The notes beneath the pieces are model-generated. The model saw only the letters and a list, made by a program, of their open reading frames with translations, did not search any database and was not told the origin of the DNA. DNA of 46,233 nt, taken from the sequence record MZ726796.1; one strand, written 5' to 3'. The stretch is from Escherichia phage vB_EcoS_ASO78B. Shown here piece by piece: positions 9,797-32,135 of this stretch (positions within the stretch are counted from its first letter, which is position 1; the number at the start of each line of letters is the position of its first letter). The position numbers and the translations under genes are program-made.

Positions 9797-10012
9797 TTAT
9801 GCTCCTGTAGTGATATGGATTTTGCCGTTTTCGCCATATGTTGCCGATTCGATTGTTGCAGTGATTGTGGATACTCCATCAAAAGATGCGCCGAGATTGA
9901 AGTTAACCACACCGGCAACCCTGCGCCCATCCTGATCGACAATCATACTTCTGCCGTTAATCTGCTCAATATGAAGATATACGGGTTCATCATTTTTCGG
10001 TGGCGACATCAT
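9797..10012 (-). CDS. hypothetical protein
   Basis: 71 aa; start overlaps upstream stop. Confidence 0.45.
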   Translation of the reverse strand: MMSPPKNDEPVYLHIEQINGRSMIVDQDGRRVAGVVNFNLGASFDGVSTITATIESATYGENGKIHITTGA

Positions 10013-10500
10013 TTAACCTCTCCATTCAGTTCTTTTACAATTAACGTTGCGTAGCCAGCAATATCTTTCCAGCTATCATCATAGTTTGGGTCGCCATTCA
10101 GGATGCGCCCAATCTTGTGCTGAATCATGTCGAGTGCCTCGTGTTGGCTTGGTGTCAGGTTGTGCCAGCCATCAACTTCGCGCATCACATCTTTCAGCTC
10201 CTGCATAATTTCAGCGCCATCTTTGAATTTGCCGTATCGACTACCGCGTTCGGTGATGAGCTGTTCCACCACATCTACTTCCTGCTCGCCAATGCAATCA
10301 TTGTGGTCTTGCTCGTCGGTAATTGGCTCGCGGCATGCAATAACAACATCCCCGCAACCCTCAATCACTTCAATGCGACCAGCATAATCTATGCTTAGAT
10401 AGAAAATCTCACCAGTACTTCCTGACTTAACTACAAGATAAGCCGTGTCATGGCCAGCAAAATCATCCTCACAGCCTTTCAGATATTTCCATTTTTTCAT
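10009..10500 (-). CDS. hypothetical protein with conserved phage C-terminal domain
   Basis: 163 aa; C-terminal RYGKF...W..L...QHEALDMI..KIGR...G....DSW.DIAGYA resembles an all-alpha phage domain (family not assigned). Confidence 0.5.
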   Translation of the reverse strand: MKKWKYLKGCEDDFAGHDTAYLVVKSGSTGEIFYLSIDYAGRIEVIEGCGDVVIACREPITDEQDHNDCIGEQEVDVVEQLITERGSRYGKFKDGAEIMQELKDVMREVDGWHNLTPSQHEALDMIQHKIGRILNGDPNYDDSWKDIAGYATLIVKELNGEVK

Positions 10501-10691
10501 TTCATCGTCACCCGGTTATTTTCATCAACATTAAAATTCTCACGAATCATCTGGTACATCTCATCTTTAGGCATATCAGCCAGTGCCACATAGCAACGGG
10601 CAAAGTAGCGAACATCACGGAGTGTCAGCGGCTGACGCTTCTCCACAATGCTGGTGATAATGTCCATCGGCTCTCGTCGTGGTCTTGGCAT
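10497..10691 (-). CDS. hypothetical protein
   Basis: 64 aa, first gene of the minus-strand island. Confidence 0.45.
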   Translation of the reverse strand: MPRPRREPMDIITSIVEKRQPLTLRDVRYFARCYVALADMPKDEMYQMIRENFNVDENNRVTMK

Positions 10692-10794
10692 ATTTACTAC
10701 TCCTTTCGAAATTTATTATTGACTAATCTACATCAAGTAGTCAATACTGTTTCTACACCAACGATTCTATCACAATGAGAGAGGTGATGTGGAA

Positions 10795-10992
10795 ATGAGA
10801 TACAAAGAAATAGCAGAGAGATACCAGAAAGAGGTGCGCGAGGTTATGGACATACTTAACGTTCGCGAAGATACCATTAAGTTTGTGGAAACTGCCATGT
10901 GTTCACTGGCGCTTGAAGCGGAGGTTGCAGGTCGTGAAAAGGCTGACGAACTTATATCTGCGGTGGTTTATAGTTCAACCAGTAACGGTTGA
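10795..10992 (+). CDS. hypothetical protein
   Basis: 65 aa from ATG 10795 after GAGAGAGG RBS. Confidence 0.4.
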   Translation: MRYKEIAERYQKEVREVMDILNVREDTIKFVETAMCSLALEAEVAGREKADELISAVVYSSTSNG

Positions 10993-11052
10993 GGATGAAG
11001 GTTATCTGTGCGTTGAGCACGTTGTTATTAAATTCTACGGGAGAAATTATAA

Positions 11053-11247
11053 ATGGCGCATGACGAACTGTACGAACAATCGCTAATCCAGCGACTTAAT
11101 GAAGTTGAGCGCACACGCGAATGGCTGGAATGCGAGCTGCGAGAAGTGCGCAATCGTCTGCAACGTAAGCGCAGTCAGCAGAAGGACGTCATCGACTGGT
11201 CGGGTGATACGCCTAAATTTAATAACTTAGGAGAATGGATAAAATGA
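11053..11247 (+). CDS. hypothetical protein
   Basis: 64 aa, coiled-coil-like; GGGAGA RBS. Confidence 0.45.
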   Translation: MAHDELYEQSLIQRLNEVERTREWLECELREVRNRLQRKRSQQKDVIDWSGDTPKFNNLGEWIK

Positions 11248-11465
11248 GAAAGTTCAGCACGTTAGTTGATTTGATTCTCGCTGACATCAGAGAGTCAAAC
11301 GCCAGAAACAAAAAGTCAAGAAATCAGCGGCAGGATATTACTTTCCGCACACTGCTTAAACAATCAATGCGCAACAAGAAGGAATGGAGATACAGACGCG
11401 ACCGAGTCCTGATAAGGCTGTGCAAGTTGAACATGAACAAGATACTTAAGGACATGAGCAAATGA
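11244..11465 (+). CDS. hypothetical basic protein
   Basis: 73 aa rich in R/K; AGGAGAA RBS. Confidence 0.4.
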   Translation: MRKFSTLVDLILADIRESNARNKKSRNQRQDITFRTLLKQSMRNKKEWRYRRDRVLIRLCKLNMNKILKDMSK

Positions 11466-11710
11466 CAGCGCCATATATGCCGATGATGAATGAGGAAGGA
11501 ATTTTAGAATGCCCGTTATGTCAGGCGACAATTGCTCACGCCGACAGCATTAACGGTAAATGGGTTGTTGAATGCTACGAGTGTGGATGCAGGTCTGGGG
11601 TGTACATGACAGGTAAAGGAGCCATTGAATCATGGAATACCCGCAACGGACACCTCTACACCGCAGATGACTTCAATCAAGCAGCAGAGGAGCGCGATTA
11701 TGGATTATAA
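11462..11710 (+). CDS. Lar-family restriction alleviation-like zinc-ribbon protein
   Basis: CPLC..(18)..CYECGC plus downstream GAIESWNTR, matching the Lar-family pattern (CPFCG...C..C...AI.AWNRR) as recalled; ATGA-coupled to upstream gene. Confidence 0.55.
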   Translation: MTAPYMPMMNEEGILECPLCQATIAHADSINGKWVVECYECGCRSGVYMTGKGAIESWNTRNGHLYTADDFNQAAEERDYGL

Positions 11711-12188
11711 ATCGCAAATCATGCGCGTGATTATCAATCACCCAGGAGCAACGCGCGCATACATTGAGAAGCATTGCGGCGGCAAGCATTCAAGCACTAC
11801 AACGCATCGACTTCATGAAATGCTGGCGCTTGGATTCATTCGTCGCGAGAAGTCAGTGATTCGTGGTGGCAAGTGGCAGTACAAGTATTTTATCTCTGAT
11901 GATGCGGCAGGTATTGATGATGCAATTAAGTGCCATTTGCTTGATAACGCTGGCGCAGAGGTGAAAGAAATCAGTGGCGCAACTGGCATTGATTATCGCA
12001 TCGTGAAAAGCAGAATCCGCATCATGTTTCAGAGTGGCGATGTGGTTCGTAATTATGACCAGCACAAGAAGCTATGGCGCTATTCATGGAAACAACAGGA
12101 AATTAATGTAAGCAATCTGTTTAATTCGCTTCTGCGCAACGCAAGAGGTAATCATGGGAAAAGCCAAGCGCAAGAAACAAGAGTATGA
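11700..12188 (+). CDS. hypothetical protein, possible tandem winged-helix DNA-binding protein
   Basis: 162 aa from ATG 11700; two repeats resembling wHTH units; weak call. Confidence 0.4.
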   Translation: MDYKSQIMRVIINHPGATRAYIEKHCGGKHSSTTTHRLHEMLALGFIRREKSVIRGGKWQYKYFISDDAAGIDDAIKCHLLDNAGAEVKEISGATGIDYRIVKSRIRIMFQSGDVVRNYDQHKKLWRYSWKQQEINVSNLFNSLLRNARGNHGKSQAQETRV

Positions 12189-12313
12189 GCCACTGCCGCC
12201 ATGCGAAATGTCAGGAATGCCGCGACATGAGGATGTGATTCTTACTGAGGCAGAATGGCGCAAGGTGGCAAGGGTGCAAATCATGTTCCGCAAACTTGCT
12301 GAGGATGTACTAA

Positions 12314-12745
12314 ATGAGATGGGCTATTAAGCATAAATCTGGCAGAACTCTGTTTGTAACATCCGATGAGTTTATTGCCAATAACCGTAGAGAGATGGGC
12401 TGGATAGTTGAGGAAGTGAAGATGACGAGCAGAGAGCAGTTTGAAGAAGTGATGAGTGATAAGTACGAGTGGTTCAGTGATGCAATTGCTTGCGCTGATT
12501 TTTGCGGTGACGATGACCATGGCTACTATGTTGGTGGCGACTATATCTATCACGGAACTTCATGTTCAGAGGCTTTGTTCTGGTTATGGAGAGGATGGCA
12601 GGCATCACGCGCAGCAATTGAAGTTGCAACGCCGTGGCTATGTGGTGATGGTGATAACGATACCGAATGGACTCAAGGCTATAACGATGGTGTCATGGCG
12701 ACAGAGAAAGCAATTATCAGCGCAGGATTAAAGGTAAAAAAATGA
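12314..12745 (+). CDS. hypothetical protein
   Basis: 143 aa; GAGGA RBS; an alternative 58-aa ORF at 12154-12330 overlaps its start. Confidence 0.4.
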   Translation: MRWAIKHKSGRTLFVTSDEFIANNRREMGWIVEEVKMTSREQFEEVMSDKYEWFSDAIACADFCGDDDHGYYVGGDYIYHGTSCSEALFWLWRGWQASRAAIEVATPWLCGDGDNDTEWTQGYNDGVMATEKAIISAGLKVKK

Positions 12746-13068
12746 TTATCCCATTAAACGACATTATGAAAGCAGACATCATTCAGCTTGAAGATTATGA
12801 TATGCAACTGGCGTTTGAAATCGAAACTGTTGAGCGTCAGTTGCAGTACGCGGATAAGAATAACGACCGCGTATGGCATGAGAAAGCACTTAAAGCGCGT
12901 GACCACATGAAAAGAACACGAGCACTTATCAAAACTCGCCTTGATAAACTTTATTATGGCGAGGAAAGGTTATTGCACGGCGCAATTCTGGCGCAAATAC
13001 GCAAGGAAATGCCGATTGGTAAGTTCATGTCATACGTGCATCGCGCAAAACAGGAGGCTGGGTTATGA
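12742..13068 (+). CDS. hypothetical protein
   Basis: 108 aa; ATGA overlap with upstream stop. Confidence 0.45.
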   Translation: MIIPLNDIMKADIIQLEDYDMQLAFEIETVERQLQYADKNNDRVWHEKALKARDHMKRTRALIKTRLDKLYYGEERLLHGAILAQIRKEMPIGKFMSYVHRAKQEAGL

Positions 13069-13365
13069 TTCCATTACTGTGGATATTATCGGCCTACGCA
13101 TTCGCGAGGGTATTTGAGGCTGACACTCTGTACAAGATGATTTGCTATGGCGCTCTGTTCTGCCTTTCAGGCGCTGCTCTTGCATTTATGGATGATGTGA
13201 TTTCAGACTAACTCCGTATATCTTTTGTTCATCATGGGCTGCTATCATTTAATCAGGAGGTAGCCCATGAATATAATCCCTATCACTTACTTTCTCACGC
13301 TCTACGCGCTCACTGATTCGCCATTATTTGCACTGGCTACCGCCTCATGGTGCTATATCTCCCTG

Positions 13366-13374
13366 TGTTATAAT
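13366..13374 (+). promoter_or_regulatory. extended -10 promoter element (TGtTATAAT)
   Basis: TG-n-TATAAT about 30 nt upstream of scaffold/protease ATG. Confidence 0.4.
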
Positions 13375-13405
13375 TCGAGCACAAACTAACCGTGGAGAGT
13401 TAACC

Positions 13406-15288
<1,883 letters not shown>

Positions 15289-28336: not shown

Positions 28337-32135
<3,799 letters not shown>

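What the first reader, a model, noticed from the sequence alone, without database searches (positions are those of the whole stretch)
11462..11710. Lar-like restriction-alleviation candidate among early small genes
The 82-aa zinc-ribbon protein (CPLC, CYECGC, then GAIESWNTR) matches the architecture I recall for the Lar family, which relieves type I restriction. It sits in a run of ten short coupled genes (10795-13211) typical of early host-takeover genes, including a possible tandem wHTH protein.
Basis: partly seen in the sequence, partly recalled or inferred. Interest (0 to 1): 0.5.

Follow-up and report, generated by a model that had tools for sequence, protein, structure and literature searches.

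The report
Lar-family zinc-ribbon gene with swappable core
This is a real small phage gene of the known Lar ("restriction alleviation") zinc-ribbon family, already labelled that way in related phages; its anti-restriction role is untested and not backed by published plating data, but its middle part exists in about 29 very different, exchangeable versions.

Summary
The ORF at 11462-11710 (+) is real and reads as described: 82 aa with CPLC, CYECGC and GAIESWNTR. It passes Pfam's cut-off for Lar_restr_allev (36.6 vs 28.6 bits). It aligns without gaps to the founding Rac-prophage Lar (30% over 53 aa). Orthologues in related phages (Bas77-81, ZK22, DS8) are already annotated "Lar-like". As a family call, the finding is correct but ordinary.

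The functional label is weaker. The protein falls below NCBIfam's Lar subfamily cut-off (30.0 vs 39.6 bits) and is not a RalR equivalog. Published plating data show ordinary, site-number-dependent EcoKI restriction of relatives that carry orthologues (EOP 0.02-0.2 with one site, about 1e-3 with two).

- Residues 9-20 and 58-82 are held by purifying selection.
- The zinc-ribbon core (residues 21-57) occurs as about 29 deeply divergent allotypes.
- Each allotype is itself under purifying selection (dN/dS 0.03-0.25).
- Allotypes are exchanged between phage lineages.
- The 21-residue tail is specific to this phage clade.

Best reading: a small counter-defence protein whose variable core recognises a polymorphic target, most likely type I restriction-modification enzymes. 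The target is inferred, not shown.

The parts
11462..11710 (+). Lar-family zinc-ribbon gene (82 aa plus stop)
   Evidence: ORF. Pfam PF14354 36.6 bits against a gathering score of 28.6. PHROG 599. BLASTP to Rac Lar, E 9e-9. Syntenic orthologues in all loci examined.
11448..11452 (+). AAGGA Shine-Dalgarno-like sequence, 9 nt before the Lar ATG. The ATG overlaps the stop of the upstream gene (ATGA at 11462-11465).
   Evidence: Read directly from the sequence.
11462..11485 (+). Residues 1-8 (MTAPYMPM), a clade-specific N-terminal extension. Homology to generic Lar proteins starts at M9.
   Evidence: Alignment with distant Lar proteins and Rac Lar. Some orthologues start at the MPMMN position.
11486..11521 (+). 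Residues 9-20 (MNEEGILECPLC), the conserved N-terminal Lar motif with the first zinc knuckle (C17, C20).
   Evidence: N10, L15, C17 and C20 are invariant in 57 distinct sequences despite synonymous variation: L15 uses 5 codons and C17 splits TGC/TGT 29:28.
11522..11632 (+). Residues 21-57, the hypervariable zinc-ribbon core: beta-hairpin 25-38, second knuckle C38/C41 (11573-11575, 11582-11584) and the start of helix 51-59. The window carries allotype 11.
   Evidence: 8-14 different residues per column. Mean pairwise DNA distance 0.52, bimodal, against 0.11-0.14 in the flanks. About 29 allotypes at 60% identity or more. Within-allotype dN/dS 0.03-0.25. AF2 pLDDT above 90.
11633..11644 (+). Residues 58-61 (WNTR), the family signature motif at the end of the helix (WNKR in Rac Lar).
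   Evidence: W58, N59 and R61 are invariant. They align with Rac Lar.
11645..11707 (+). Residues 62-82 (NGHLYTADDFNQAAEERDYGL), a clade-specific conserved C-terminal tail outside the Pfam domain, predicted as a helix (68-79) at low confidence.
   Evidence: The Pfam match ends at residue 62. G63, L65, Y66, D70, E77 and R78 are invariant with synonymous variation. Only about 6 of 5787 family clusters extend through it. pLDDT 48-60. Tail identity is 0.88-1.00 in the flank-selected control.
11687..11692 (+). GAGGAG, which is Lar codons E76-E77 and also the Shine-Dalgarno sequence of the next gene (ATG at 11700).
   Evidence: Sequence. There is almost no synonymous variation at codons 76, 77, 80 and 81.
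11235..11465 (+). Upstream neighbour (DUF7301, PHROG 1785), occupying a presence/absence slot that is independent of Lar core type.
   Evidence: Pfam DUF7301, E 2e-23. The slot is empty in about half of the loci and holds an HNH endonuclease in some, with no association with Lar allotype.
11700..12188 (+). Downstream neighbour, a tandem winged-helix protein (PHROG 1687 'MarR family'), translationally coupled to Lar by an 11-nt overlap.
   Evidence: PHROG 1687, E 6.5e-56. The AF2 model shows two wHTH units, residues 3-65 and 70-130. Foldseek hits are multi-WH proteins and MarR regulators.
10795..13211 (+). Run of nine short, mostly overlapping + strand genes that contains the Lar gene.
   Evidence: ORF coordinates. 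Each gene matches a PHROG family. The same order is seen in Bas80.
10718..10745 (.). Palindrome ATTGACTA-N12-TAGTCAAT in the divergent intergenic region. It provides back-to-back TTGACT -35-like boxes, making it a candidate bidirectional promoter/operator upstream of the cluster.
   Evidence: Promoter scan: 10 of 12 matches on the - strand and 9 of 12 on the + strand. Sequence. Consensus matches only; 11 sites were found against 7.5 +/- 2.8 expected in the region.

Best explanation
SHOWN.
- 11462-11710 encodes an 82-aa C4 zinc-ribbon protein of the Lar family (Pfam PF14354).
- It sits in an overlapping, translationally coupled run of small accessory genes in a roughly 46-kb Skatevirus-like siphovirus.
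- The protein has three layers. First, a conserved N-terminal motif with the first Cys pair. Second, a 37-residue ribbon core that exists in the phage population as about 29 deeply divergent allotypes; each is under purifying selection and they are exchanged between phage lineages. Third, the family's WNTR motif followed by a conserved 21-residue tail found only in this phage clade.

INFERRED.
- It is a small protein-binding counter-defence factor made from the head of the rightward operon.
- The conserved tail and N-terminal motif carry the common function.
- The variable ribbon surface sets which variant of a polymorphic host target is recognised.
- By homology with Rac Lar, the most likely target is a type I restriction-modification complex. 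Lar, like lambda Ral, lets type IA enzymes methylate unmodified DNA instead of cutting it.
- Any one allotype would then work only against some systems.

The target and the effect on restriction are not demonstrated for this protein or any close orthologue.
For: Family:
- Pfam above the gathering score and PHROG 599.
- Gapless 30% match to Rac Lar with ligands and WN-x-R in register.
- Structural neighbours in BFVD are Lar-annotated, probability 0.99-1.0.
- Confident zinc-ribbon-plus-helix model.

Real and important gene:
- Intact in 59 of 59 loci and in 9 of 9 flank-selected genomes.
- Counts of phage records with the gene block and with a Lar match nearly coincide: Escherichia 19 vs 19, Shigella 4 vs 4, Salmonella 126 vs 124.

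Specificity-module reading:
- Core DNA distance is 0.52 and bimodal, against about 0.12 for flanks and termini.
- Within an allotype dN/dS is 0.03-0.25. Window vs L003 has saturated synonymous sites (20 of 22.8) but only 10 replacements. The cores are therefore functional and old, not drifting.
- In L009 vs L036 the Lar gene is 83-100% identical in DNA while flanks are about 45% and the adjacent gene is 35% identical in protein.
- The nearest relative of 27 of 29 allotypes is another allotype of the clade.

Mechanism by analogy: Ral and Lar alleviate restriction by stimulating the methyltransferase (PMC10286901). Ral sensitivity maps to the HsdM N-terminal domain and is limited to type IA (PMC12707154).
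Against: - No functional test exists for this clade.
- Bas77-80 carry orthologues and one EcoKI site each, and plate at 0.02-0.2 on EcoKI. Bas81 has two sites and plates at 6e-4 to 2e-3. All plate at about 1e-4 to 1e-2 on the type I system EcoCFT_I. This is what unprotected phages would show, so any alleviation is weak, allele-specific or absent. Those phages carry other allotypes (Bas80 type 16, Bas81 type 4; the window is type 11), and no knockout control exists.
- The protein is below NCBIfam's Lar cut-off.
- The known Ral-sensitive determinant, the HsdM N-terminal domain, would not obviously require about 29 different cores.
- The Bas63 Lar-like gene matters on hosts lacking an intact type I system.
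- The loci and protein hits were retrieved through conserved-terminus words, which inflates apparent terminus conservation. The flank-selected control mitigates this but has only 9 genomes.
Confidence: 0.42

Rival explanations
1. It is a counter-defence or host-takeover factor aimed at something other than type I R-M (for example type IV restriction or another immune system). Alternatively, its core varies to escape host sensors that recognise the protein itself. The Lar name would then be historical only.
For: The PhageMaP preprint reports that the Bas63 Lar-like gene 32 is more important in hosts whose type I systems are not intact, and suggests type IV systems (PMC11482910). Orthologue-bearing phages are restricted normally by EcoKI and EcoCFT_I. 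Many discrete, old allotypes maintained side by side and transferred between lineages fit an arms race with a diverse target or sensor.
Against: No target is known. PADLOC and NCBIfam give no other lead. The only experimentally characterised homologue acts on EcoKI (King and Murray 1995, cited). The Bas63 observation is indirect.
Confidence: 0.27
2. It is a small nucleic-acid- or polymerase-binding zinc ribbon with a regulatory or replication role in the phage's own programme, perhaps working with the adjacent tandem winged-helix protein. It would have no role in restriction.
For: The only PDB fold matches are generic zinc ribbons of the transcription and translation machinery: aIF2-beta, TFIIB/Brf1 and Elf1. 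Some annotators call orthologues 'zinc-binding domain of primase-helicase'. The gene is universally retained and translationally coupled to a DNA-binding-type neighbour.
Against: None of the PDB matches is significant (none at E <= 1e-3). A housekeeping partner would not favour about 29 divergent cores. The tail stays conserved where the neighbouring wHTH protein drops to 35% identity, which argues against co-evolution with it. The Pfam and PHROG family match is to Lar, not to primase zinc fingers.
Confidence: 0.15
3. It is a RalR-type DNase toxin, as now annotated for the Rac homologue. It would damage host DNA and might be controlled by an antisense RNA.
For: RefSeq names b1348 'endodeoxyribonuclease toxin RalR' with the sRNA antitoxin RalA. 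PMC4041452 reports non-specific DNase activity. The window protein is homologous to it.
Against: The RalR equivalog model scores 23.3 bits against a cut-off of 113. There is no Rfam match and no convincing antisense promoter-terminator pair across the gene. The gene is embedded in a coupled operon of a lytic-type phage rather than being a stand-alone toxin-antitoxin locus. No recognisable nuclease motif is shared. Hypervariability of the core is hard to reconcile with a catalytic site.
Confidence: 0.07

Closest known systems
Lar / RalR of the Rac prophage of E. coli K-12 (b1348, 64 aa)
   Same: Same Pfam family. 30% identity over 53 aa without gaps. Both CxxC pairs and the W-N-x-R motif are in register. 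Both are small single-domain zinc-ribbon proteins encoded by phage-derived DNA.
   Different: The window protein has an 8-residue N-terminal extension and a conserved 21-residue C-terminal tail that Rac Lar lacks. It fails the RalR equivalog and Lar-subfamily cut-offs of NCBIfam. It lies in a coupled operon of a virulent-type siphovirus, with no RalA-like antisense RNA. Its restriction-alleviation activity is untested.
Ral of phage lambda
   Same: Possible functional analogue: a small phage protein that relieves type IA restriction by enhancing de novo methylation through HsdM (PMC12707154; PMC10286901).
   Different: No sequence relationship: the Pfam scan at E <= 1 lists no Ral family. Ral is not a Cys4 zinc ribbon. 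The shared mechanism is an inference by way of Lar.
Lar-like proteins of Skatevirus-cluster phages (Bas77-81, ZK22, DS8, IME207, swi2) and Roufvirus-like Klebsiella phages
   Same: True orthologues: same position, same termini and tail, and already annotated 'Lar-like restriction alleviation protein'.
   Different: The window carries a rarer core allotype (type 11). It has only 5 near relatives among 105 sequences, and the best GenBank phage match is 79.7%. It is 21-30% identical in the core to the alleles of Bas81, ZK22, S192 and others.
Gene 32 of Felixounavirus Bas63 (Lar-like)
   Same: A Lar-family gene of a virulent coliphage with some experimental data on conditional importance (PMC11482910).
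   Different: Different phage family. Its phenotype was seen on hosts without intact type I R-M. No direct comparison with the window protein was made here.
HsdS target-recognition domains of type I R-M systems (evolutionary analogy only)
   Same: Conserved framework segments flank highly divergent, discrete, recombinationally exchanged modules. That is the pattern found here for the Lar core. The HsdS side of the analogy comes from established knowledge of type I systems.
   Different: Unrelated protein and fold. No evidence links Lar allotypes to HsdS variants.

Membership tests
Pfam PF14354 Lar_restr_allev | Profile score at or above the curated gathering score, covering the whole domain | tested here: met
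   36.6 bits against 28.6, E 5.5e-9. Residues 14-62 match profile positions 3-58 of 58. For comparison, Rac Lar scores 53.5 bits and the Bas80 orthologue 37.0.
Pfam PF14354 Lar_restr_allev | Four Cys zinc ligands arranged CxxC...CxxC | tested here: met
   C17, C20, C38 and C41 are invariant in 57 distinct orthologues and align with the Cys pairs of Rac Lar. Zinc binding itself was not measured.
Pfam PF14354 Lar_restr_allev | Helix after the ribbon ending in the W-N-x-R motif | tested here: met
   WNTR at residues 58-61, invariant W, N and R. Helix 51-59 in the AF2 model, pLDDT above 90. Rac Lar has WNKR.
NCBIfam TIGR03655 anti_R_Lar (Lar subfamily) | Score at or above the curated cut-off (39.6 bits) | tested here: not met
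   30.0 bits, E 4.9e-7. It is the best NCBIfam match but below threshold.
NCBIfam NF007260 RalR (type I toxin-antitoxin DNase toxin, equivalog) | Score at or above the equivalog cut-off (113 bits) | tested here: not met
   23.3 bits.
RalR/RalA type I toxin-antitoxin system | Partner antisense small RNA antitoxin next to or overlapping the toxin gene | tested here: not met
   No Rfam match in 10000-14000 on either strand. No minus-strand promoter-like or terminator-like site was reported within 11462-11710. The gene sits in a coupled operon. A novel sRNA cannot be excluded by these scans.
RalR/RalA type I toxin-antitoxin system | Non-specific DNase activity and toxicity | not testable with these tools
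   Needs purified protein and expression tests. Only the Rac protein has been assayed (PMC4041452).
Restriction-alleviation proteins (functional class: Lar, Ral) | Raises plating efficiency of unmodified phage on type IA R-M hosts and enhances modification | not testable with these tools
   Only indirect data exist. Orthologue-bearing Bas77-80 (one EcoKI site each) have EcoKI EOP 0.02-0.2. Bas81 (two sites) has 6e-4 to 2e-3. There is no sign of strong protection, but no isogenic knockout exists and the alleles differ from the window's.
Lambda Ral family | Sequence similarity to Ral | tested here: not met
   No Ral family appears among Pfam matches at E <= 1.
Diversity-generating retroelement target (considered as a source of the variable core) | Template repeat matching the variable region, plus a reverse transcriptase nearby | tested here: not met
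   No repeat of the core region in 10600-13400. Neighbouring genes have no RT match. Variation is between genomes and in discrete old alleles.

The most novel reading that the evidence does not exclude
The Lar-like gene of this phage clade is a two-part counter-defence module. A conserved tail (with the N-terminal motif) delivers a common activity or docks on a conserved partner. A library of about 29 interchangeable zinc-ribbon cores, kept in the phage population by frequency-dependent selection and passed between lineages, each recognises a different variant of a polymorphic host immune component, for example different type I R-M families or specificity subunits. It would be the phage-side mirror of the modular, shuffling specificity domains of type I enzymes.
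Probability: 0.2. Interest if true: 0.65.

Novelty: new member of a known kind. Interest (0 to 1): 0.33.

Why it matters
As a family call it matters little, because annotation pipelines already give orthologues this label.

The value lies in two cautions and one lead.

Caution 1: 'Lar-like restriction alleviation protein' is a homology-derived label attached to thousands of proteins (5,787 representative clusters here). It rests on one experimentally studied protein that is now also described as a DNase toxin.

Caution 2: in the only clade relatives with plating data, the label does not predict resistance to EcoKI.

Lead: this small gene is a sharply bounded island of extreme, structured polymorphism in an otherwise about 90% identical gene block, with a clade-specific conserved tail. 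That is the signature expected of a specificity determinant in a host-phage arms race. The natural allele series (about 29 cores on one scaffold) is a ready-made experimental system for finding what Lar-family proteins bind.

Tried and rejected
1. Chance ORF. Rejected on synteny, purifying selection, coupling and the family match.

2. Core variability as relaxed constraint on a tiny fold. Rejected because within-allotype dN/dS is 0.03-0.25 with saturated synonymous sites and the distance distribution is bimodal.

3. Ongoing positive selection by point mutation among close alleles. Not supported, since close pairs show purifying selection. A few pairs have dN/dS of 0.4-0.9 or only replacements, but on 1-6 changes.

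4. A DGR-type mutagenesis target. No template repeat and no RT.

5. Two-gene unit with the upstream DUF7301 gene. Rejected: that slot is an independent presence/absence polymorphism with no association with Lar allotype.

6. Cores imported from unrelated Lar proteins. Rejected for 27 of 29 allotypes, whose nearest relative is another allotype of the clade. The first comparison was misleading because conserved flanking residues inflate identity.

7. Decoupling of core and flanks as something special to Lar. Not special: all adjacent roughly 200-nt segments of the block have uncorrelated distance matrices (rho about 0), meaning pervasive recombination. What is special is the depth and bimodality of core divergence.

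8. Solved-structure relatives. None by sequence or by fold at E <= 1e-3.

9. Internal sequence repeat in the wHTH neighbour. None by BLASTP. The duplication shows only in the predicted structure.

10. Host-genus specificity of allotypes. Types 26 and 16 occur in both Salmonella and Escherichia/Shigella phages (contig-length matches), so there is no simple host-genus association. This was not analysed formally.

11. The L001/L023 panel used the wrong coordinate frame for L001 and is disregarded.

12. The sampling-bias worry was addressed with 9 genomes selected through flanking DNA only.
Full report
**Observation.** The ORF at 11462-11710 on the + strand is present as described. It encodes 82 residues: MTAPYMPMMNEEGILECPLCQATIAHADSINGKWVVECYECGCRSGVYMTGKGAIESWNTRNGHLYTADDFNQAAEERDYGL. 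CPLC is at residues 17-20, CYECGC at 38-43 and GAIESWNTR at 53-61. Its ATG overlaps the stop codon of the upstream gene (ATGA), and AAGGA lies 9 nt upstream. Its last 11 nt overlap the start of the next gene.

In 10795-13211 I count nine + strand genes, each matching a PHROG family. Seven of the eight junctions overlap by 4-35 nt.

**What the window is.** The window is essentially a complete genome of about 46 kb. It is a siphovirus of the 'Skatevirus' cluster, which includes Escherichia phages Bas77-81, C1, swi2 and ZCEC08, Shigella phages DS8 and Sf11, and many Salmonella phages. The closest GenBank records are about 90% identical over about 70-76% of a 24-kb segment. In Bas80 the same gene order is annotated, and the orthologue is already called 'Lar-like restriction alleviation protein'. 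The same label appears in ZK22, DS8, Bas81 and others.

**Family membership.**
- Pfam PF14354 (Lar_restr_allev) matches residues 14-62 over profile positions 3-58 of 58, at 36.6 bits against a gathering score of 28.6.
- PHROG 599 matches at E 4e-12.
- I fetched the founding member, ralR/lar (b1348) of the Rac prophage. BLASTP gives a gapless 53-residue alignment at 30% identity, E 9e-9, with both Cys pairs and W-N-x-R in register.
- AlphaFold2 on 46 homologues gives a confident model for residues 11-60 (pLDDT above 90): a beta-hairpin zinc ribbon (25-38) followed by helix 51-59. A second, low-confidence helix covers 68-79.
- No solved structure is related by sequence or by fold at E <= 1e-3; the only matches are generic zinc ribbons.
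- Among predicted viral structures the nearest neighbours are Lar-annotated proteins, probability 0.99-1.0.
- Two stricter tests fail. NCBIfam's Lar subfamily model TIGR03655 scores 30.0 bits against a cut-off of 39.6, and the RalR equivalog model scores 23.3 against 113.

The protein is therefore a member of the broad Lar family, but it is not a close functional equivalent of the one characterised protein.

**What the family label is worth.** Lar was defined genetically as relieving EcoKI restriction and enhancing modification, like lambda Ral (King and Murray 1995, cited). [quoted passage not shown] The same Rac protein has since been described as a non-specific DNase toxin, controlled by the sRNA RalA (PMC4041452; RefSeq annotation).

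An exhaustive profile search finds 5,787 representative clusters with this domain. Many carry 2-5 tandem copies. I found no mechanistic or structural study of any of them.

A preprint on Bas63 reports that its Lar-like gene is conditionally important on hosts whose type I systems are not intact (PMC11482910).

**Published plating data on close relatives.** The completed BASEL collection describes Bas77-81 as 'markedly sensitive to RM systems' (PMC11990801). I took site counts from its S2 Table and plating efficiencies (EOP) from its S1 Data.

| Phage | EcoKI sites | EOP on EcoKI (three replicates) |
|---|---|---|
| Bas77 | 1 | 0.08, 0.04, 0.1 |
| Bas78 | 1 | 0.03, 0.02, 0.03 |
| Bas79 | 1 | 0.1, 0.03, 0.08 |
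| Bas80 | 1 | 0.2, 0.08, 0.04 |
| Bas81 | 2 | 7.5e-4, 1.8e-3, 6.4e-4 |

On the type I system EcoCFT_I (2-3 sites) all five plate at about 1e-4 to 1.5e-2.

This is the site-number dependence expected of unprotected DNA, so there is no sign of strong alleviation. The data have limits:
- There is no isogenic knockout.
- A Ral-like effect can be modest.
- Bas80 and Bas81 carry allotypes 16 and 4, whereas the window carries allotype 11.

The window itself has 3 EcoKI sites against 7.4 +/- 2.7 expected.

**Comparative anatomy, the new part.** I retrieved 58 related viral loci and 45 protein clusters.

Relative to the window, the Lar protein is only 53% identical at the median. Most neighbours are 86-96% identical.

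The divergence is sharply localised. Mean pairwise DNA identity runs as follows:

| Segment | Mean pairwise DNA identity |
|---|---|
| Upstream gene g2 | about 0.88 |
| g3 slot | about 0.2 |
| Lar codons about 4-13 | 0.83 |
| Lar core | 0.41-0.52 |
| Lar tail and downstream gene | about 0.9 |

Per codon, residues 21-57 have 8-14 different amino acids per column. The following residues are invariant or nearly so: N10, L15, C17, C20, C38, C41, W58, N59, R61, G63, L65, Y66, D70, E77 and R78. Many of them show free synonymous variation. L15 uses five codons, R61 uses CGC/AGA/AGG, and C17 splits 29:28. The termini are therefore held by selection on the protein. Codons 76-82 are an exception: their nucleotide invariance is explained by the overlapping Shine-Dalgarno sequence (GAGGAG, 11687-11692) and start of the next gene.

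**How the core varies.**
- Nei-Gojobori counts over all pairs give core pS 0.76 and pN 0.52, against termini pS 0.56 and pN 0.14.
- Pairs whose termini are nearly identical at synonymous sites (pS 0.05-0.15) still have saturated cores (pS 0.74, pN 0.40).
- Within a core type the core is strongly conserved, with dN/dS of 0.03-0.25. The window and L003 differ at 20 of 22.8 synonymous sites but by only 10 replacements.
- Clustering 88 distinct cores gives about 29 allotypes at 60% identity or more. Most between-type identities are 10-30%.
- The core DNA distance distribution is bimodal.
- The nearest relative of 27 of 29 allotypes is another allotype of the same clade, so they diversified in place.
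- Alleles move. L009 and L036 belong to subclades whose adjacent gene is only 35% identical in protein and whose flanks are about 45% identical in DNA. Their Lar genes are nevertheless 83-100% identical in DNA.
- Adjacent segments of the whole block have uncorrelated distance matrices. Recombination is therefore pervasive here. What is special to Lar is the maintenance of many old, discrete alleles.

**Sampling control.** Both retrieval tools rely on conserved words, which could exaggerate terminus conservation. I therefore fetched nine genomes found only through 2.6 kb of flanking DNA. All nine have the gene with a conserved tail. In the eight scored quantitatively, tail identity to the window is 0.88-1.00 and core identity is 0.21-0.30. 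The ninth, ST1UNAM, was read by eye and carries allotype 16.

**The extensions.** Alignment with distant Lar proteins shows that homology begins at M9. The tail after WNTRNG is absent from generic Lar proteins, including Rac Lar. Only about six of the 5,787 clusters extend through it.

**Interpretation.** The pattern has three elements: universal retention, a conserved clade-specific tail, and a constrained but highly polymorphic, horizontally exchanged ribbon surface. It is what one expects of a binding protein whose variable face tracks a polymorphic partner. By homology, the first candidate partner is the type I R-M machinery. That link is inferred, and the plating data give it no support for EcoKI.

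Alternatives I considered:
- Another defence target, or escape from a host sensor.
- A regulatory or replication zinc ribbon.
- A RalR-like DNase. This is the least likely. The equivalog score is far too low, there is no antisense RNA, the gene sits in a coupled operon, and a hypervariable core is hard to reconcile with catalysis.

**Side-claims.** The downstream gene (11700-12188, PHROG 1687) is predicted with high confidence to be two consecutive winged-helix units, residues 3-65 and 70-130. Early expression remains untested. A perfect palindrome, ATTGACTA-N12-TAGTCAAT at 10718-10745, supplies back-to-back -35-like boxes in the divergent intergenic region. Consensus matches in this region are no more frequent than in shuffles.

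**Verdict.** The gene is a new member (a rare allotype) of a known kind. The structured polymorphism and the clade-specific tail are the only features that raise it above routine.

Noticed in passing
window 11235-11465 (and the same slot in L003-L069): The DUF7301 gene upstream of Lar occupies a presence/absence slot. The slot is empty in about half of the related loci, filled by one of two DUF7301 types in most others, and holds an HNH homing endonuclease in L048, L052 and phage ZCEC08. Slot content is independent of Lar allotype.
   Followed up: yes
window 10718-10745: A perfect 8-nt palindrome, ATTGACTA-N12-TAGTCAAT, lies in the intergenic region between the divergent gene blocks. It gives back-to-back TTGACT -35-like boxes, making it a candidate bidirectional promoter/operator, possibly for the nearby winged-helix protein.
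   Followed up: partly
window 11700-12188: The PHROG 'MarR family' protein is predicted as two consecutive winged-helix units plus a C-terminal helix. The halves share no detectable sequence repeat. Orthologues split into two subclades, about 88% and about 35% identical to the window's.
   Followed up: yes
proteins P0047, P0050, P0054 and others: Lar-type zinc-ribbon units often occur as 2-5 tandem copies within one protein of 100-450 aa. At least 76 of 147 top non-clade hits have two or more units by a regex that undercounts (P0047 has five units by eye). This suggests a modular binding domain.
   Followed up: partly
L001 4760-5005 (Bas80), L067 541-786 (ST1UNAM) and other allotype-16 alleles: Allotype 16 has a one-residue deletion in the second zinc knuckle (MCECGC, that is CxC instead of CxxC), yet is conserved and widespread.
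   Followed up: no
window 12314-12745: This 143-aa gene (PHROG 343) is another variable member of the block. It has a median identity of 49.5% and is detectable in only 32 of 59 loci; shorter or different genes occupy the position in ZK22, 6947 and Bas81.
   Followed up: no
whole window (sites at 29775, 36479, 42021): Only 3 EcoKI sites (AACN6GTGC) are present, against 7.4 +/- 2.7 expected from shuffles. Relatives Bas77-80 have a single site each. This may reflect avoidance of type IA sites, which would itself reduce the need for an anti-restriction protein.
   Followed up: partly
window 11053-12188 and the aligned loci: Pairwise distance matrices of adjacent roughly 200-nt segments are uncorrelated (Spearman rho about 0), even within one gene. 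This indicates very short recombination tracts throughout this phage group.
   Followed up: partly
window 10009-10500 (- strand): This 163-aa protein matches DUF6378 just above the Pfam cut-off. It also matches PHROG 474, labelled 'phosphofructokinase', a label that looks unreliable for a domain of this size.
   Followed up: no
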